Shown: positions 2,936-10,025 of the stretch, one piece after another
Position numbering within the stretch: position 1 is the first letter of the stretch
Layout: the number at the start of each line of letters is the position of its first letter
Assembly: GCA_965216875.1 (NCBI GenBank)
Contig: OZ244207.1
Coordinates: 4,032,001 to 4,096,000 of the forward strand
Origin: Rubripirellula sp.
GTDB taxonomy: Bacteria > Planctomycetota > Planctomycetia > Pirellulales > Pirellulaceae
Direction: 5' to 3'
Length of the DNA stretch: 64,000 bases
Made by a program: the position numbers and the translations under genes
The notes under the pieces: model-generated
Told to the model about the DNA's origin: nothing
What the model saw: the letters and a program-made list of their open reading frames with translations, nothing else
The model's database searches: none

Positions 2936-2984
2936 ACTAGCCGCCAGCTATGCGGCAGAGTTCACTAGCCGCCAACTACGCGGC
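2936..2984. repeat. 28-bp-period tandem duplication overlapping the ABC ATPase stop codon
   Basis: actagccgccagctatgcggc (2936-56) and actagccgccaactacgcggc (2964-84); each unit can form a GCCGC/GCGGC hairpin. Confidence 0.6.
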
Positions 2985-3668
2985 GCTGCTCATCTCTTGT
3001 GATGACGCTTCGACAGCATGACCATCAGCGATGTGAAAGACGCGGTGCGCGGTAGCCGAGACCGCCATGTCGTGCGTGACAAGGATGACCGTTTGCCCGT
3101 CATCACAAAGCTTGTGCAAGGTCTTCAGAACGAGGTCTCGGGACTCTGGATCAAGATTCCCCGTCGGTTCATCGGCCAAAATCAAACTCGGACGCATCGC
3201 GAGTGTTCTTGCCATTGCGACACGTTGTTGCTGGCCAGCGCTCAACTCGCTCGGCTTGTGATCGAGACGGTCGCCCAAACCAAAACGCTCAAGCAAGTCT
3301 TTCGCTTGGTTCTGTTGGCTCTCTTTCGCCGTGCCATAAAGCGACATCGGCAACTGAACGTTTTCGATAGCGCTGAGGTAGGGCACGAGATTGAAGCTCT
3401 GGAACAGAAATCCGATTCGCTCGTTTCGCAGACGGGCGCGCTGCTTGACGTTGATCTCGTAGAGGGATTCTCCGTCGATCACCACGCGTCCCGCCGTTGG
3501 CGAGAGCATCCCGCCAATCATCGACAAGAGCGTCGACTTGCCGCTGCCACTCGGACCGACGATCGCGATGAACTCGCCCGCTTCAACGTTCATCGAAGTC
3601 GGGTGCAGTGCGTGTACCGTACTGCGTCCGCGTGTGTAGTCTTTGCAAACGGAATCAGTCTGAATCAT
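2976..3668 (-). CDS. ABC transporter ATP-binding protein (LolD/MacB type)
   Basis: GPSGSGKST, LSAGQQQRV, LILADEPTGNLD, VTHD. Confidence 0.96.
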   Translation of the reverse strand: MIQTDSVCKDYTRGRSTVHALHPTSMNVEAGEFIAIVGPSGSGKSTLLSMIGGMLSPTAGRVVIDGESLYEINVKQRARLRNERIGFLFQSFNLVPYLSAIENVQLPMSLYGTAKESQQNQAKDLLERFGLGDRLDHKPSELSAGQQQRVAMARTLAMRPSLILADEPTGNLDPESRDLVLKTLHKLCDDGQTVILVTHDMAVSATAHRVFHIADGHAVEASSQEMSSAA

Positions 3669-3752: not shown

Positions 3753-5003
3753 CTACGCCGTTTGGAAACAGACACAGGGGTCAAGGTGAGCCGCTTTGCG
3801 AGCAGGCGGGTAGCTCGCGACGACCGCTACGATGACGGCAACGATCAAACCGACCATCACCGCTTCGACCGAAACACTCGTGGCGACACCCAAAAGCTGT
3901 GGGCCAGCAATGATCGCCGCTGCCAGGCCGAGGCCCAGTCCGCAGAGTCCACCTACCGAACCGACCGCGAGCGCCTTGAGCAGAATCATGCGGCTGACCA
4001 TGCTTGGCGTCGCCCCCAGTGCCATCAGCGTCCCGAGTTCACGTTTGCGTTCGGAAACGTTGGCGAACATGACGCTCGCGATGCTCGCACCCCCGATCAC
4101 CATCAAGATGCCAAAGATCGCATAGGACAGTCGGTTCATGAGGCGGTTGACGGTCACTTGAGCTTGCACGATCTGCGAGATCGTGACAACGCGAGAATCG
4201 GGCAACAGCTCGCCCAATTCCCCGACCAAGCCAGTGGCCGCTTCTTCGCAGCAACCCATCACTTCGATCACGTTGACGATCGGCCCGGTGTCAGCAAGCT
4301 CTTGAACGCGATGCAGGTGGGCGAGTACGCGACCATCGTCGCTTGTTCCGGTTGCAGGCAGGATACCGGCAACACGAAAGGAATCGCCGAGTAGCTCGAT
4401 CGACTGTCCTTCTTTGATCCCCTGCGACTTGGCCAAGTCGGCACCGACCAGTGCCGAATCCATGTCCAGTTCATGAACGATTCGCGTGGCCGCATAGGAA
4501 CTCAGGTCCGTCTTTTCGTCCGACGCAATTTGACACGCTTTCCCACCACACCCTTCGTGCTTCTTGCCGACACCGTTCATTTCGAATCCGGCTGAGAGCA
4601 AATCGACACTCTGCCATGCCGATTTCTTGTAGAACTCGGTTCGCGGCAAGATGCCGGTCACGACAATCGCGTTGTCGCCAAGCTGGGCTGGAACGGAAAG
4701 CTTGGGGGCGAGTTCCTCGACTCCCACCTTTTGAGCCAACGTGATGCGCGTCACGTATTCCTCAGGCAGCGATTTCCCATGGGTGTCCGCGGCGTGATAA
4801 TCCTGCAGCGTCACGCCTTCGGGAAGAACAAGGATGTTGGCGCCAAGCTGCGCCATTTGCGACGCCACCTTCTGCTCGGACGAAGCCACAACGCTTTCAA
4901 CCGCGACGAGTGCCGAGACGCCGAGCGCGACGATCAGCAATGCGGTCAGGCTGTGCCCGGGTCGGCGCAACACTTCTTTCCAAACCAAAGAATGAAAGTT
5001 CAT
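3753..5003 (-). CDS. ABC transporter permease (MacB/FtsX family), Cys-rich
   Basis: One N-terminal TM, periplasmic domain, NVSERKRELGTLMALGA and three C-terminal TMs; Cys motifs CGGKAC, GCC, PCVC. Confidence 0.92.
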   Translation of the reverse strand: MNFHSLVWKEVLRRPGHSLTALLIVALGVSALVAVESVVASSEQKVASQMAQLGANILVLPEGVTLQDYHAADTHGKSLPEEYVTRITLAQKVGVEELAPKLSVPAQLGDNAIVVTGILPRTEFYKKSAWQSVDLLSAGFEMNGVGKKHEGCGGKACQIASDEKTDLSSYAATRIVHELDMDSALVGADLAKSQGIKEGQSIELLGDSFRVAGILPATGTSDDGRVLAHLHRVQELADTGPIVNVIEVMGCCEEAATGLVGELGELLPDSRVVTISQIVQAQVTVNRLMNRLSYAIFGILMVIGGASIASVMFANVSERKRELGTLMALGATPSMVSRMILLKALAVGSVGGLCGLGLGLAAAIIAGPQLLGVATSVSVEAVMVGLIVAVIVAVVASYPPARKAAHLDPCVCFQTA

Positions 5004-5057: not shown

Positions 5058-5783
5058 TTACTTTTTCTTCTGGCACTTGCTGCAGTTGCATTTGCCTGAC
5101 TTGTGAAGTTGCGTCGCAAGTTCCTCACCGGTAACCGTTGCTTGGTAGGTTCCGAGATGGGTTCCTGGAGGTGCGAACATGAGAACGACGGGAGCGTCGA
5201 GCGTGGTGTCGACATGCATGCGACGAAAGAACTCGCCCTCTTCCGCATTGGTTGCTGACGCGTTGATGCTGTAGAGTTTGTTTTTGAACGCGGGATCTTT
5301 CAGCAGTGCGGTGACGCCAGCGGGCATTTGTGATTGCGATGCAGGCATCAAGCAGACGACCGCGATTTTTTGGCTCTGCAGAGCCTTCACCATTTCGGCG
5401 TACTTGGGCGTCAAGATGGCGTTGGTCAATTGTTGCTCGTCGACCTTTTGGCGGTAGACACCGGTCACGGCACCATTGGGAGCCACACCGAAGACGGCCG
5501 GTAGCGGAATGCGCGATGCGTCGAACCGCTTGATCAGTGCCGCCTCTTTGCGATCGCGAACGTTGACGGTTACCCAAGTCGTTTTTTCGGACGTTTCGGA
5601 AACGTGATCGCGAATCGTGCTCGCCATTTTCTGGGTCGCCGAGTCGTTCGAGCGGTAGAACATCACGTAGGTGTATTTGCCCTTCTCACTCGCTGCATCG
5701 ACCTGCTCTGCCGTCGTTGCGGCTCGGCCAAGCGATGGAAACAGGACGGCGGCGGCGAGAAACAAACCGAGTGGACAGCGCAT
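5058..5783 (-). CDS. Secreted protein, possible tandem thioredoxin-like folds, C-terminal CxCxxC tail
   Basis: Signal peptide from ATG 5783; 'KYTYVMFY', 'IPLPAVFGVAPNG', 'APVVLMFAPPG'; ends SGKCNCSKCQKKK; first gene of the ABC operon. Confidence 0.7.
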   Translation of the reverse strand: MRCPLGLFLAAAVLFPSLGRAATTAEQVDAASEKGKYTYVMFYRSNDSATQKMASTIRDHVSETSEKTTWVTVNVRDRKEAALIKRFDASRIPLPAVFGVAPNGAVTGVYRQKVDEQQLTNAILTPKYAEMVKALQSQKIAVVCLMPASQSQMPAGVTALLKDPAFKNKLYSINASATNAEEGEFFRRMHVDTTLDAPVVLMFAPPGTHLGTYQATVTGEELATQLHKSGKCNCSKCQKKK

Positions 5784-5959
5784 GGAGCACTCTCTAATTG
5801 GGTGGCGAAAGGAAAAACAGCACGGGCGGGATCGACCAACATTCCCGCTTGTGCTGATCGATCCAAAACTGACGAACAATCAAGTCAACGTCTCACGGCC
5901 GTCAAACCATCGCCAATCGGCATAAGTTCACATGGGTCGTCGATGCGCCGTTTGTACCC

Positions 5960-6282: not shown

Positions 6283-7647
6283 TCACGCGATCGAAACGAC
6301 GGGTGGTTCTTTTTGCAAGGCATCCAGCGCGACCGGCAGGTACTCGGGGCTATCTTGAAGCAGCTGTTCCATGTGTGCCCGGGGATCATCGACCCAACGC
6401 GTGAACGCTTTGGCAAACAACTCAACGAATTCGTAATCACAGGCTTGCAGCGCGCGCAACAGATTGCGGTTGGCCAACTTGAGCGTCGCCTCAGGAACCG
6501 TTTCGAGTGTGCTGAGCGCGTAGACGCCAGCGAAGACGACATGACGTGCCGGACTTTCAAGCAGATGCGTGGCAACCTCAAGGGTGATGTCGTCCAGCTT
6601 TCCAAGTCGAGTCACCGTGCACATGGCCTTGGCACGGACTTCGTCATCACGGTGGTCCGACGATAGCTTGAGCTCTGCGACAATCGCTTCGCTTGCCACT
6701 TCTGGACATTGGCCTGACATTCTTTCAACCGCTTCGATCGCGTTCAACCGGATCGCTCGATTGGGTGATCGCAGTTTCTCGAGCACCAACGTCTCGTGCC
6801 GGTCGCTCAGTTTTGAACTCGATGACACGTGACGAAGGGCAATGACCTGCGAAGAAACGAACGGACTCGCAGCGAGCTCCCACCACTGAGGTTCCGACTG
6901 GTTGCACAGGCTCTGCTTCTTCGCCGGCTGGTAAAACGAGTCGTTGGTTTTGAGCAAGTATTTCAGCGAGCCTTGCATTGGTCGTTTCAGTTCGCCAAGC
7001 AGGTCGCTCGCCCAGTCCGGTTTGTTCGCTTCACGTGTCCATCCAGCAAGGGCGACTGCGTATGCCAGGCTCTGCGTATCGAGGAAGGGACGTGGCGCAA
7101 TGTTCCACTGGGTCGAGTCCCAAAACGTTGCAGCTTTTCCGACCAGCAAGACGCTGCTGCGCGGCATCCCCAATCCCGTCGCGATCACTGCCAGCTCGAC
7201 GACTTCGGGCAAGCGTGCTTCGGCGAGATCATTTTGGTGCAGCATGTCCTCGACAACGCCATGGATGAGTGTTGCCATCCCGAGCGCTGGCTCGCTGTCC
7301 AATTCTTCCGTCAATCGGATCGATCGTGTGCTTGGATCATATTGTCCCAACAGACCGCTGGGACCTTCGCATGAGCCGCCGCCTCATCCACCGCCGCCAC
7401 AACTGGCAGCTTTGGGTGAATGAACGACTTCGAATTGGACGCCCGAAGTGTCGTGGCGAAGATGGTCACCCAGGAAGCGAATGATGTCTGCCGGCGATTT
7501 TGAATCGACCCTCTCGACCAGCGACGAGAGACGCAAGATCGGCAGCTTCATACGTTCGAGCCCAATGCATTCGGCGATCTGCTGGAAATGGAACTCAATT
7601 CGCGCCTTCTCGGAGTCTGGCAAATTCGGCTTCGGCTTAAAAAACAC
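6283..7647 (-). CDS. Candidate selenoprotein (in-frame UGA at 7384-7386) with C-terminal HEAT repeats; alternatively a nonsense-disrupted gene
   Basis: ORFs 7384..7704 and 6283..7350 share one frame, interrupted only by TGA: AASCGGGG*GGGSCEGPSGLLGQY. GTG start at 7647 with AGGAAG upstream. SECIS-like hairpin downstream; HEAT-like repeats (LRSPNRAIRLNAIEAV, DHRDDEVRAKAMCTVTRLG). Confidence 0.65.
7337..7374 (-). promoter_or_regulatory. Putative bacterial SECIS element
   Basis: mRNA: UGA-GGCGGCGGC-UCAUG-CGAAG-GUCCCAGC-GGUCU-GUUGGGAC-AA-UAUGA; 8-bp upper stem, G-initiated apical loop 27 nt after the UGA, 5-bp lower stem. Confidence 0.6.
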
Positions 7648-7973
7648 AGCTATCTTCCTGCAAATTGGGGCCCGGACGATTGCGGCCGGAGAATTAGGGA
7701 ACAATTGGGGCCTGCTGGCGTGACGGTACAGGATGTTGCTCGTGAAAGCACTCCCGATTCTTGGTGCGGCAGCCCTTGGCTATTCGCTCGGGACTGCGGG
7801 ACTCGAATGCTTGTATTTGCAGGATCCTGTCCGCAGGCAGCAACCCTGATTCATTTCCGCTTGGGTGCGAGAAGCGACCGGGGCGGACAAGCATCCATCC
7901 GCGACGCTGGATAGGCTGCAAGGGCTGATATGATATCTGTCTTTGCCGTTACCACATTTGAAGGTCGACGCCT

Positions 7974-10025
7974 GTGCTCGCGTCTTTGAATCTGATTGTC
8001 GGTTCTCTGGTTGCCGCTGGCGTGTTGTCAGGCGTTCTTTTTTGGTGGTTCAAGCGAGACTGGTTTGCTGGATTGGGAGTCGCTGCTGCATCCGGCGCCC
8101 TTGCCGGGCTCATCACGCTTACATGGCCCGACCCTGGCCCTCTGGACGTAGAAGGCCAGCGGGAGGCGGCGCACCTGGATACTCGCAATCTCAGAGCGAA
8201 ACCGAACCAGTCCGACTTGGCTGACCAAAGGGCCGACCAAGAACGTCAACGGCGGTTGATGTTGGCGAGCGTCGAGACGTACGCCCCCTACCGGCCAGCC
8301 GAAAAACCGAGCGCGGGATACGTTGCATCGGATGCGTGTCGGGAGTGTCACAAAGAGAACTACGAGACCTGGCACGATTCTTATCATCGCACAATGACAC
8401 AAGTCGCCACTCCCGATGCGGTCTATGCGAACTTCGACAATCACGAAATCACGCTCCGAGGACGTCACTACCGATTGACGCGCAACGGCGAAGTATGTCA
8501 GGCGGAGATGTTTGACCCCGATTATCCGCCCTCGCCTCAAACGCGAATGAAAGTCCCACTTGTGATGGTCACTGGCTCTCACCACATGCAAGTTTTTTGG
8601 TATCCGGGCTTCGCACCGCGGACTCTCGGTCAATTGCCCATCGTTTACCTGAAAGAAACCCAGCAATGGATTCCGCGTCGTGCTGCGTTCTTGGTGCCAC
8701 CGGACGAGCCGGTTTCGAGTGAGCTTGGGCGTTGGAACGAAGGTTGTTCCAATTGCCATTCAACTCATCGACGCGAGCGTTGGCGCGAGCCCGGCACCTG
8801 GGATACCGAAGTTACAGAGCTTGGCATTTCCTGCGAAGCTTGCCACGGTCCAGGCGAAGAGCACATCGCTCTCCATCGGGCACAGGCGTCAGACATTCGT
8901 AATGACCCAATTATCAACCCAGCTAGTCTTTCACACGTAGCCTCTTCACACACCTGTGGACAATGTCATGGCAAAACATCTCTCAAGACAAGCGGCAGTC
9001 ACCTGAACGAGTCTGGGCACGACTTCCGCCCCGGTGACGACCTGAACGACACGCATCATATTTGGGAGCGTGACAGCAAGGTCGTGCGTGACTTTGTTGC
9101 GTCGATGAATTTTAAAGAGGGAGCCGACGCGGCGCTGCGGCGCGTTTATTGGGACGACGGCAACATACGAGTATCGGGCCGAGAGTTTAACGGCATGGCC
9201 CATTCGGCTTGCTTCCAACGAGGGGAGATTTCATGTCTATCCTGCCACCAAATGCATCAATCTGAATCCGACCAACGCGATCGAATGGAGTGGGCCAACG
9301 ACCAGCTTTCGGTAACCGGTTTGGATGACCATGCTTGCACACAGTGCCACAAAGCAAGCGACTACGGCGAATCGCACACTCACCATGCCGCAGCTTCAGC
9401 TGGCTCACGTTGCTACAACTGCCACATGCCTCATACGAGTTATGGGCTCATCAAAGCGATGCGCAGCCACACGATCACCAGCCCCATCCTGGCAAAAGAC
9501 TTGAAAGTAAAACGCCCCAACGCGTGTAACCTCTGTCACTTGGACCAAACACTACAGTGGACGTCAAACCAGTTATCGAAGTGGTACGGCATCGAAGAGG
9601 TAGCGGATCTTTCCGATGAGCAAAAGACGGTCGCAGCGTCAGTGATTGGACTGCTCAAAGGCGATGCTGGTGAGCGAGCACTTTGGGTTTGTTCGATGGG
9701 TTGGCAACCAGCGCAACAAGCCTCAGGCAACGATTGGATGGCGCCATTCCTAGCCCGACTGATGGTTGACCCCTATCCCGCAGTACGCTTGATGGCGCGT
9801 CGATCTTTACGAACCTTGCCGGGATTGCATGATCTTCAATTCAACGCCGTCGCACCGGAACCAGAACGAGAAAACGTCCTGGCAAGGACGCTCGCGGGTT
9901 GGAGCCACGAAGCTGTCAAAGACAAACGCCCCGCGATCCTGATTGAAGACACCGGACTACAGACCGACCGGATTGAGGCAATGATGAAGCAGCGGGATGA
10001 CACCCGAATCAATCTGCTTGAGTGA
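7974..10025 (+). CDS. Membrane-anchored multiheme (8 CxxCH) c-type cytochrome with C-terminal HEAT-like region
   Basis: CRECH, CSNCH, CEACH, CGQCH, CLSCH, CTQCH, CYNCH, CNLCH; two N-terminal hydrophobic helices; 'DPYPAVRLMARRSL'. Confidence 0.92.
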   Translation: MLASLNLIVGSLVAAGVLSGVLFWWFKRDWFAGLGVAAASGALAGLITLTWPDPGPLDVEGQREAAHLDTRNLRAKPNQSDLADQRADQERQRRLMLASVETYAPYRPAEKPSAGYVASDACRECHKENYETWHDSYHRTMTQVATPDAVYANFDNHEITLRGRHYRLTRNGEVCQAEMFDPDYPPSPQTRMKVPLVMVTGSHHMQVFWYPGFAPRTLGQLPIVYLKETQQWIPRRAAFLVPPDEPVSSELGRWNEGCSNCHSTHRRERWREPGTWDTEVTELGISCEACHGPGEEHIALHRAQASDIRNDPIINPASLSHVASSHTCGQCHGKTSLKTSGSHLNESGHDFRPGDDLNDTHHIWERDSKVVRDFVASMNFKEGADAALRRVYWDDGNIRVSGREFNGMAHSACFQRGEISCLSCHQMHQSESDQRDRMEWANDQLSVTGLDDHACTQCHKASDYGESHTHHAAASAGSRCYNCHMPHTSYGLIKAMRSHTITSPILAKDLKVKRPNACNLCHLDQTLQWTSNQLSKWYGIEEVADLSDEQKTVAASVIGLLKGDAGERALWVCSMGWQPAQQASGNDWMAPFLARLMVDPYPAVRLMARRSLRTLPGLHDLQFNAVAPEPERENVLARTLAGWSHEAVKDKRPAILIEDTGLQTDRIEAMMKQRDDTRINLLE

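What the first reader, a model, noticed from the sequence alone, without database searches (positions are those of the whole stretch)
6283..7647. Candidate new selenoprotein: C-GGGG-U-GGGS-C loop in a HEAT-repeat protein, split by the ORF caller
Seen: the minus-strand ORFs 7384..7704 and 6283..7350 are in the same frame, and the only interruption is TGA at 7384-7386. Read-through gives ...HSPKAAS-C-GGGG-*-GGGS-C-EGPSGLLGQYDP..., so the stop sits midway between two cysteines in a Gly-rich loop, where a third Cys or Sec would fit the pattern. The downstream half has only a TTG start, buried in a hairpin. The upstream half has GTG 7647 with AGGAAG. The joined product is 454 aa: N-terminal domain, thiol/selenol loop, a zincin-like segment with degenerate HExxH (ATLIHGVVE), then HEAT repeats. 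Established: bacterial Sec is encoded by UGA plus an adjacent SECIS and often aligns with Cys in homologues. Inference: a selenoprotein family I do not recognise, possibly a metal-binding or redox sensor, next to an ArsR/Fur/Cys-rich ABC cluster.
Basis: partly seen in the sequence, partly recalled or inferred. Interest (0 to 1): 0.88.

Follow-up and report, generated by a model that had tools for sequence, protein, structure and literature searches.

The report
New selenoprotein: zincin-like HEAT protein
The "split" gene is one 454-residue protein whose in-frame TGA encodes selenocysteine, founding a selenoprotein family of unknown function in marine Pirellulaceae that the inventories checked do not list.

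Summary
Minus-strand 7647..6283 is one reading frame, interrupted only by TGA at 7384-7386, in the loop C-GGGG-*-GGGS-C.

The TGA is a selenocysteine (Sec) codon, not a mutation or an assembly error:
- Among 401 genomes of the same family, 46 carry the gene (47 copies). 29 copies have exactly one in-frame stop, always TGA and always in the same alignment column. The other 18 have Cys there.
- A hairpin 27 nt downstream fits the published bacterial SECIS model. In the Sec forms 98.5% of pair cells are paired and three pairs show compensatory changes. The Cys forms show 74.8% and no covariation.
- The window's genome has tRNA-Sec, selA, selB and selD.
- 26 of 28 TGA-form genomes have selA and the other two have tRNA-Sec. 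16 of 18 Cys-form genomes have no selA match.

The protein is a zincin-like domain whose HExxH motif has decayed, followed by HEAT repeats. Sec sits in a disordered Gly-rich loop beside the former active-site helix.

Function is unknown. My best guess is a redox-active Sec/Cys pair; metal binding is the main rival. The link to the neighbouring ArsR/Fur/ABC genes is not conserved. No Pfam or NCBIfam model covers the family. A 2016 supplement may list one unnamed member.

The parts
6283..7647 (-). Complete selenoprotein coding sequence: 454 codons plus terminal TGA at 6285-6283; GTG start at 7647-7645
   Evidence: One frame with a single internal TGA. Full-length uninterrupted orthologues of 442-477 aa. 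The start aligns with the MFFKPK N-termini.
7654..7659 (-). Shine-Dalgarno-like AGGAAG, 6 nt upstream of the GTG start
   Evidence: Read directly from the sequence.
7384..7386 (-). Sec codon UGA (residue U88)
   Evidence: Same column holds TGA in 29 of 47 family genes and TGC/TGT in the other 18. Unchanged in contigs of 3 runs that span it.
7344..7364 (-). SECIS hairpin: 8-bp stem GUCCCAGC/GUUGGGAC with loop GGUCU, 27 nt after the UGA
   Evidence: Folds at -13.6 kcal/mol. In 29 Sec forms 98.5% of cells pair and 3 pairs have compensatory changes. Meets the four bSECIS criteria quoted in PMC13188914.
7369..7401 (-). Gly-rich Sec/Cys loop, residues 83-93 (C-GGGG-U-GGGS-C)
   Evidence: Core [U/C]-G-G-G-x-C: Cys at +5 in 27 of 29 Sec forms and 18 of 18 Cys forms. 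pLDDT below 50 over residues 81-93 in the model, so probably flexible.
7138..7515 (-). Zincin-like domain, residues about 45-170: three strands plus the former active-site helix 120-138
   Evidence: AF2 models with pLDDT 90.9 and 86.0. VIA-align against 48,161 chains: abylysin Z 8.9, SPRTN 8.3, selecase 8.1, jannalysin 8.0, then mostly other zincins.
7249..7263 (-). Degenerate HExxH, H129-G-V-V-E133
   Evidence: Aligns with ATLAHELAHELL of distant homologues. In the clade, position 130 is never Glu (0 of 45) and position 133 is His in 1 of 45.
6313..6894 (-). HEAT-repeat solenoid, residues about 252-445
   Evidence: Helix pairs in the model. The family profile hits alphaRep/HEAT chains at E 1e-68. 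Pfam HEAT_2 is below its cut-off for this protein (19.4 vs 27.7 bits) and above it in distant homologues.

Best explanation
Window 7647..6283 (minus strand) is one gene for a 454-residue cytoplasmic selenoprotein.

Shown by comparative evidence, not by experiment: UGA 7386-7384 is decoded as selenocysteine by the organism's SelA/SelB/SelD/tRNA-Sec system. Decoding is directed by a SECIS hairpin (7364-7344) lying inside the coding sequence, 27 nt downstream of the UGA.

The protein belongs to a Pirellulaceae clade of a wider, uncharacterised family. That family has an N-terminal helical segment, a zincin-like domain and a HEAT-repeat solenoid. In this clade the HExxH zinc site has decayed. A disordered Gly-rich loop carrying [Sec/Cys]-G-G-G-x-Cys has appeared between strands 1 and 2 of the zincin sheet.

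On the unrooted quick tree Cys forms nest within Sec forms. This suggests Sec is ancestral and was replaced by Cys mainly in lineages without the Sec machinery.

Inferred mechanism, about 45% likely: the mobile loop is a redox-active selenol/thiol pair (U88 with C93). It forms a selenenylsulfide and acts on, or senses, a partner held by the HEAT solenoid and the vestigial zincin cleft.
For: Sec decoding:
- Of 47 family matches in 46 of 401 genomes, 29 carry exactly one in-frame stop, always TGA. 18 carry none, and TAA or TAG never occurs.
- All 29 TGAs fall in one alignment column. The other 18 have Cys there (TGC 13, TGT 5).
- The own genome has tRNA-Sec (71.5 bits; ARAGORN anticodon TCA), selA 507 bits, selB 343 bits and selD 249 bits.
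- 26 of 28 TGA-form genomes have selA at E<=1e-60. The other two (88% and 92% complete) have tRNA-Sec at 67.4 bits. 16 of 18 Cys-form genomes have no selA match.
- SECIS: 28 of 29 Sec forms fold to the same hairpin. 98.5% of 196 pair cells are paired, reached by 0 of 500 shuffles. Three of 7 pairs have compensatory double changes. Slid controls give 28-56%.
- The Cys forms give 74.8% paired with no covariation, and the central pair is broken in 14 of 17 distinct rows.
- The loop codon is GGT or AGT in 29 of 29 Sec forms against 5 of 18 Cys forms.
- The hairpin meets the published bSECIS criteria for loop, stem, G in the loop, spacing and energy.
- 13 of 29 Sec forms have no in-frame start within 29 codons after the TGA. 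Yet residues 89-112 are the best-conserved segment, at 66% mean pairwise identity.
- Protein databases hold the two halves separately. 71 of 103 hits are N-terminally short. 25 of the 150 listed representatives match only residues 1-87, and the 6 fetched end in ...GGGG...GGG or ...GG just before the Sec column.
- Contigs of 3 runs from 2 studies span the site without change. X1 and X4 may be the source.

Fold.

Redox reading: Cys at +5 in 27 of 29 Sec forms and 18 of 18 Cys forms. A third Cys is present in 18 of 18 Cys forms but only 18 of 29 Sec forms.
Against: No experiment shows selenium in the protein, and no RNA run holding the gene was listed.

The whole-region fold energy is not better than shuffles (z 0.16). 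The Cys forms fold as stably as the Sec forms (-11.2 vs -10.1 kcal/mol). The SECIS case therefore rests on position, covariation and loop sequence, not on energy.

Two genomes with the Sec machinery (G360, G094) carry the Cys form.

For the redox mechanism there is no thioredoxin fold, no UxxC/CxxU motif, no known redox partner and no conserved neighbouring gene. Two Sec forms lack the +5 Cys. Three conserved Cys in every Cys form would suit a three-coordinate metal site equally well.
Confidence: 0.9

Rival explanations
1. The same selenoprotein, but the Sec/Cys loop is a metal- or metalloid-binding site. Two or three chalcogen ligands on a flexible Gly linker replace the lost HExxH zinc site. 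The protein would then be a sensor, chaperone or sequestering protein.
For: All 18 of 18 Cys forms keep three Cys in the loop. Position 133, the second zinc-ligand His of HExxH, is Cys in 16 of 45 clade members. Two distant homologues that lack HExxH carry other Cys-rich inserts at the same place (P0167, P0207). The 2026 review states that about 70% of predicted Sec interactions involve metals (PMC13188914, passage seen).
Against: 11 of 29 Sec forms have only two chalcogen residues in the loop, and 2 have Sec alone. The loop is predicted to be disordered. The metal-regulator neighbours (ArsR, Fur) are not conserved. No metal was tested.
Confidence: 0.3
2. Sec/Cys88 is a catalytic nucleophile. 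The decayed metalloprotease would have been rebuilt as a seleno- or thiol-hydrolase using the old substrate cleft.
For: The loop sits between the strands of the zincin sheet, next to the former active-site helix. H62, D134 and E148 are invariant in 45 of 45 members and could assist catalysis.
Against: No precedent is known to me. The loop has low confidence, and I could not read the model's coordinates to measure distances. A poly-Gly loop is a poor oxyanion or nucleophile scaffold.
Confidence: 0.1
3. The UGA is read through, or terminates, without Sec. It could be a regulated stop giving an 87-residue peptide plus a separately started C-terminal protein, or near-cognate suppression.
For: Gene callers split the gene. 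A TTG follows 11 or 12 codons after the TGA in 9 of 29 Sec forms.
Against: 13 of 29 Sec forms have no start within 29 codons, while that stretch is the most conserved. The stop is TGA in 29 of 29 cases. It pairs with Cys, tracks the presence of selA and precedes a covarying SECIS.
Confidence: 0.04
4. A private nonsense mutation, pseudogene or assembly error.
For: None beyond the split ORF call.
Against: The same TGA is found in 28 genomes of at least 5 genus codes. Contigs of four public runs agree. Both halves are conserved as protein.
Confidence: 0.01

Closest known systems
Bacterial selenoprotein genes with an intragenic bSECIS (consensus model quoted in PMC13188914)
   Same: An in-frame UGA aligned to Cys in homologues. 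A hairpin with a 5-nt loop of pattern N1-G-U-N-N2, a 6-8 bp stem and 27-nt spacing. The gene co-occurs with selA, selB, selD and tRNA-Sec.
   Different: The protein family, a pseudo-zincin plus HEAT repeats, matches no NCBIfam model at E<=0.1. Keyword searches of the review's text, including its Table 1, gave 0 occurrences of HEAT, Planctomycet, Pirellul, peptidase and metalloprotease. Sec is not in a UxxC/CxxU motif or a thioredoxin fold.
Minigluzincins (abylysin 4jiu, selecase 4qhf, jannalysin 4jix) and SprT-like SPRTN (6mdx)
   Same: The predicted fold of residues about 45-170 matches at Z 8.0-8.9, rmsd 3.0-3.7 A, over 93-107 aligned residues. Distant homologues of the family keep HExxH on the equivalent helix.
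   Different: This clade has lost the catalytic Glu (0 of 45) and the second His (1 of 45). It gained the Sec/Cys loop and carries a C-terminal HEAT solenoid. No Pfam peptidase model reaches its cut-off.
Unnamed 'hypothetical' selenoprotein candidate of planctomycete P1 (Kim et al. 2016, PMC4807772, Table S9)
   Same: It is listed as two adjacent gene calls. Its closest NCBI hit is a Rhodopirellula sallentina protein with Cys at the aligned residue, and a SECIS is predicted (supplement read). A R. sallentina Cys-form member of this family exists (P0031).
   Different: The table gives no sequence, motif or domain, so I could not confirm identity with this family. No family, fold or distribution was described there.
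UGSC-containing protein (NF041046) and other short-motif selenoproteins in the review's Table 1
   Same: A Sec followed by Gly/Ser and a Cys (UGSC compared with U-GGG-S-C).
   Different: No NCBIfam hit. The spacing, size and domain context are different.
Gly-flanked Sec in flexible tails of eukaryotic thioredoxin reductase (GCUG) and selenoproteins K and S (recalled, not tested here)
   Same: Sec lies in a Gly-rich, disordered segment near a partner Cys. This suggests a mobile redox arm.
   Different: Those are C-terminal tails in unrelated eukaryotic proteins. Here the loop is internal and sits in a zincin-like domain. The comparison is from memory only.

Membership tests
Bacterial selenoprotein gene (Sec-UGA with bSECIS) | The in-frame UGA aligns with Cys in homologues (a Sec/Cys pair) | tested here: met
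   29 of 47 have TGA and 18 of 47 have TGC or TGT, all in one column.
Bacterial selenoprotein gene (Sec-UGA with bSECIS) | UGA-containing orthologues in other Sec-using organisms | tested here: met
   27 further genomes in at least 5 genus codes. N- and C-terminal fragments are common in metagenome proteins.
Bacterial selenoprotein gene (Sec-UGA with bSECIS) | bSECIS: 3-9 nt loop, 4-16 bp stem, G in the first two loop positions, 16-37 nt from the UGA, MFE <= -7.5 kcal/mol | tested here: met
   Window: loop GGUCU, 8-bp stem, 27 nt spacing, -13.6 kcal/mol. Criteria quoted from PMC13188914. Covariation. Two of the 29 Sec forms fold at -7.4 within my 36-nt window.
Bacterial selenoprotein gene (Sec-UGA with bSECIS) | The Sec machinery is encoded in the genome | tested here: met
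   tRNA-Sec, selA, selB and selD are all above their cut-offs.
Bacterial selenoprotein gene (Sec-UGA with bSECIS) | Selenium is incorporated into the protein | not testable with these tools
   Needs 75Se labelling or mass spectrometry.
Known curated selenoprotein families (NCBIfam) | A match to a family model | tested here: not met
   0 NCBIfam families at E<=0.1 for the joined protein.
Zincin metallopeptidases (minigluzincin, SprT-like, M78) | Zincin fold: mixed sheet plus active-site helix | tested here: met
   VIA-align Z 8.0-8.9 to four zincins, and most of the top 21 rows are zincins. Foldseek gave only weak hits to the same families (E >= 0.65). A Z near 8 is also typical of best chance matches, so this rests on consistency together with the HExxH of distant homologues.
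Zincin metallopeptidases (minigluzincin, SprT-like, M78) | HExxH zinc-binding and catalytic motif | tested here: not met
   The window has HGVVE. In the clade, position 130 is Glu in 0 of 45 and position 133 is His in 1 of 45.
Zincin metallopeptidases (minigluzincin, SprT-like, M78) | A Pfam model above the gathering score | tested here: not met
   No peptidase model hits the window protein. Distant homologues hit Peptidase_M78 and SprT-like only below the cut-off.
HEAT-repeat proteins | Tandem helix-pair repeats recognised by HEAT profiles | tested here: met
   The family profile hits alphaRep/HEAT chains at E 1e-68. The model has helix pairs over residues 252-445. The window protein alone is below the Pfam cut-off (HEAT_2 19.4 vs 27.7 bits).

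The most novel reading that the evidence does not exclude
A metalloprotease scaffold lost its zinc site and acquired a mobile selenocysteine loop in its place. This would be a new kind of selenoenzyme: a Se-based redox or hydrolytic catalyst acting on proteins captured by the attached HEAT solenoid. It would be widespread in marine Pirellulaceae, and it would also show how Sec can take over from a metal centre.
Probability: 0.15. Interest if true: 0.8.

Novelty: new member of a known kind. Interest (0 to 1): 0.58.

Why it matters
Annotation pipelines split this gene in two. 71 of 103 database relatives are N-terminally short, so a whole protein family is mis-annotated in Pirellulaceae genomes and marine metagenomes.

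It adds a well-supported family to the bacterial selenoproteome, in a fold never linked to selenium: a zincin that has lost its zinc site, fused to HEAT repeats. It also adds a SECIS with clear covariation.

The clean split is useful as a natural experiment. Sec forms occur in genomes with selA, and Cys forms, which carry an extra Cys, occur in genomes without it. This shows what Cys needs in order to replace Sec.

The function is open, and the Sec residue marks the functional site for experiments.

Tried and rejected
- Neighbourhood: tblastn of five window neighbours against the 46 other loci found nothing. Clustering ORFs within 6 kb either side in 8 loci found no shared neighbour across genera. 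The ArsR/Fur/ABC link was therefore dropped.
- Energy test: the whole-region fold is no better than shuffles, and hairpin energy does not separate Sec forms from Cys forms.
- Rfam: no SECIS family match in 7280-7420. The only hits were two chance matches at E 2.5 and 4.1.
- Foldseek: the whole model returned only HEAT/ARM repeat proteins. The PDB profile search did the same. The N-terminal model gave nothing at E<=0.001.
A natural Cys homologue gave only unnamed stand-alone clusters of about 250 aa.
- Expression: no RNA holder was listed.
- Literature: the BSepDB family table (Table S2) was cut off in the stored supplement. Two Haft papers on new selenoprotein families are not held. Either could list this family.
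- 'Hypothetical protein DG' (motif GUxG) comes from Desulfosediminicola. Its model, NF049953, is not among the hits, which returned no family at all.
- The second G000 match 'with 1 TGA' (L037) is a stand-alone HExxH paralogue whose TGA is its normal stop.
- The careful tree search did not finish, so only the quick tree is reported.

Full report
**Observation**

On the minus strand, ORFs 7384..7704 and 6283..7350 are in one frame, and the only stop between them is TGA 7386-7384. Reading it as U gives ...AAS-C-GGGG-U-GGGS-C-EGPSGLLGQYD....

The start is GTG 7647. AGGAAG lies 6 nt upstream, and the N-terminus aligns with the MFFKPK start of homologues. The product is 454 aa. The downstream ORF's TTG (7350-7348) lies in the 3' arm of a hairpin.

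**Is the TGA real and conserved?**

I searched 401 genomes of the same taxonomic family with the joined protein at E<=1e-30. 46 genomes gave 47 matches.
- 29 matches hold exactly one in-frame stop, always TGA.
- 18 hold none.
- TAA and TAG never occur.

I fetched all 47 loci and aligned them. All 29 TGAs occupy one column, G-G-U-G-G-G-x-C. All 18 other genes have Cys there (TGC 13, TGT 5).

Contigs of four public runs were laid on the gene. Three span it whole, and none differs at 7384-7386. One of the three is a metagenome strain that differs at 8 of 1422 positions. X1 and X4 may be the source of the assembly. An assembly error or a private mutation is excluded.

**Sec machinery**

The window's genome (8.26 Mb, one contig) encodes:
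- tRNA-Sec at 71.5 bits, with ARAGORN anticodon TCA;
- selA at 507 bits, selB at 343 bits and selD at 249 bits, which lie together at 325-331 kb.

Across the same 401 genomes, selA was found at E<=1e-60 in 253.
- It is present in 26 of the 28 TGA-form genomes.
- The other two (88% and 92% complete) have no selA even at E<=1e-5, but both have a tRNA-Sec at 67.4 bits.
- Of the 18 Cys-form genomes, 16 have no selA match. G360 and G094 have selA and tRNA-Sec yet carry Cys.

**SECIS**

In the window, GUCCCAGC-GGUCU-GUUGGGAC (7364-7344) starts its loop 27 nt after the UGA and folds at -13.6 kcal/mol.

The published bacterial model asks for a 3-9 nt loop, a 4-16 bp stem, a G in the first two loop positions (pattern N1-G-[G|U]-N-N2), 16-37 nt spacing and MFE <= -7.5 kcal/mol (PMC13188914, passage read). 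All of these are met.

- 28 of 29 Sec forms give the same hairpin as their minimum-energy fold.
- On the ungapped alignment of the 29 Sec forms, 98.5% of 196 pair cells are paired. No shuffle out of 500 reaches this, and slid controls give 28-56%.
- Three of the seven pairs show compensatory double changes: 30-42 CG to UA, 31-41 GC to AU, and 33-39 CG to UA.
- The same columns in the 18 Cys forms are 74.8% paired with no covariation. The central pair is broken in 14 of 17 distinct rows.
- The loop codon is GGT or AGT in 29 of 29 Sec forms, against 5 of 18 Cys forms. This is a third-position constraint that protein coding does not explain.

Two caveats apply. Overall fold energy is not better than shuffles, and it does not separate Sec forms from Cys forms. 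Related sequences also inflate shuffle tests.

**Translation across the UGA**

13 of 29 Sec forms have no in-frame ATG, GTG or TTG within 29 codons after the TGA. Yet residues 89-112 are the most conserved stretch among Sec forms, at 66% mean pairwise identity against 42-49% elsewhere.

Databases show the consequence of the split.
- 71 of 103 relatives are N-terminally short (263-360 aa). Several of those fetched begin at (L/M)GKYD, just after the loop.
- 25 of the 150 listed representatives match only residues 1-87.
- The six that I fetched end in ...GGGG...GGG or ...GG, just before the Sec column.

**Evolution**

A quick maximum-likelihood tree was built from 45 rows with a midpoint root. 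The two partial copies were left out, and the careful search did not finish.
- Sec forms sit on all deep branches.
- Cys appears as one clade of 16 plus two singletons.
- This needs 3 changes, of which at least 2 are forced by well-supported branches.

Together with the selA pattern, this suggests Sec is ancestral and was replaced by Cys when the Sec machinery was lost. The direction depends on the root.

**What the protein is**

Pfam gives only sub-threshold HEAT hits, and NCBIfam gives nothing.

Distant full-length homologues (20-25% identity) carry ATLAHELAHELLLGG where the window has ATLIHGVVEDML. They hit Peptidase_M78 and SprT-like weakly, below the cut-offs.

AlphaFold2 on an 84-sequence alignment gives pLDDT 90.9 and pTM 0.90. 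The model shows:
- N-terminal helices;
- three strands at 71-74, 101-104 and 109-112;
- helix 120-138;
- further helices, then a HEAT solenoid;
- pLDDT below 50 only in the Sec loop (81-93) and the C-terminal tail.

A separate model of residues 1-258 (pLDDT 86.0) was aligned to 48,161 PDB representatives. It matches abylysin (Z 8.9), SPRTN (8.3), selecase (8.1) and jannalysin (8.0). Below these come mostly other zincins. Foldseek gave only weak hits to the same families.

Within the clade:
- the catalytic Glu position is never Glu (0 of 45);
- the second His is His in 1 of 45 and Cys in 16 of 45;
- H62, D134 and E148 are invariant.

The domain is therefore a zincin that has lost its canonical zinc site. 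The Sec/Cys loop is an insertion between strands 1 and 2.

The N-terminal module of about 250 aa also exists alone in large unnamed clusters (run with a natural Cys homologue). The window's own genome has one such copy with an intact HExxH.

**Function**

No neighbouring gene is conserved across genera, so genomic context gives no help.

The loop core is [U/C]-GGG-x-C. The +5 Cys is present in 27 of 29 Sec forms and 18 of 18 Cys forms. A third, upstream Cys is present in 18 of 18 Cys forms but only 18 of 29 Sec forms.

- I favour a mobile redox-active selenol/thiol pair (about 45%). Sec with a nearby partner Cys is the usual redox signature, and Cys forms needing an extra Cys fits the known pattern of Cys replacing Sec (recalled, not tested).
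- A metal or metalloid site is the main rival (about 30%).
- A rebuilt hydrolase is a long shot.

None of these was tested.

**Novelty**

The family hits no NCBIfam model. Keyword searches of a 2026 review that tabulates prokaryotic selenoprotein families, and of the BSepDB and deep-Sep papers, found no HEAT, zincin or planctomycete family. These were full-text term searches and passages, not complete readings.

Table S9 of Kim et al. 2016 (PMC4807772, read) lists an unnamed split 'hypothetical' candidate in planctomycete P1, whose closest hit is a Rhodopirellula sallentina Cys protein. This may be a member of the family, but it cannot be verified from the table.

BSepDB's family table and two Haft papers could not be read.

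**Verdict**

This is a genuine selenoprotein gene of a family that is apparently undescribed. The evidence for Sec decoding is strong and comparative. The function is open.

Noticed in passing
G000:C1:325282-326163 (outside the window; locus L020): The selD match lies in an open frame of 749 aa, far longer than the 311-position selD model. SelD here is probably fused to another domain. selD, selA and selB lie head to tail at 325-331 kb.
   Followed up: no
L037 (G000:C1:1961220-1964630), about 1240-1890 +: This is a stand-alone paralogue of the N-terminal zincin-like module with an intact HExxH (MAHELAH). The '1 TGA' flagged is simply its normal stop codon.
   Followed up: partly
window 3753-5003 (-): A MacB/FtsX-type ABC permease with Cys-rich inserts (…HEGCGGKAC…, …MGCCEE…). 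An ABC ATPase lies next to it at 2976-3668. Kim et al. 2016 list a SalX/SalY-type ABC transporter as a selenoprotein candidate in another planctomycete. This copy has no in-frame TGA.
   Followed up: no
window 7974-10025 (+): A 683-aa protein with eight CxxCH haem-binding motifs by my reading of the translation (Pfam Cytochrome_C7 and C554 hits). It is transcribed divergently from the selenoprotein gene and is not conserved beside it in other genomes.
   Followed up: partly
window 5058-5879 (-): A 273-aa ORF with no Pfam hit. It has an internal signal-peptide-like segment and a C-terminal KCNCSKCQKKK tail. It lies between the selenoprotein gene and the ABC permease.
   Followed up: no
Alignment A3, rows P0167 and P0207: Two distant family members that lack HExxH carry other Cys-rich inserts (…GCGC…SGGQCG…, …GCCQDGACCD…) at the position of the Sec loop. 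This hints that Cys clusters have arisen there repeatedly.
   Followed up: no
Genomes G360 and G094 (loci L047, L079): These two genomes have selA and tRNA-Sec but carry the Cys form of the gene, nested among Sec forms in the tree. They look like independent Sec-to-Cys replacements that happened without loss of the machinery.
   Followed up: partly
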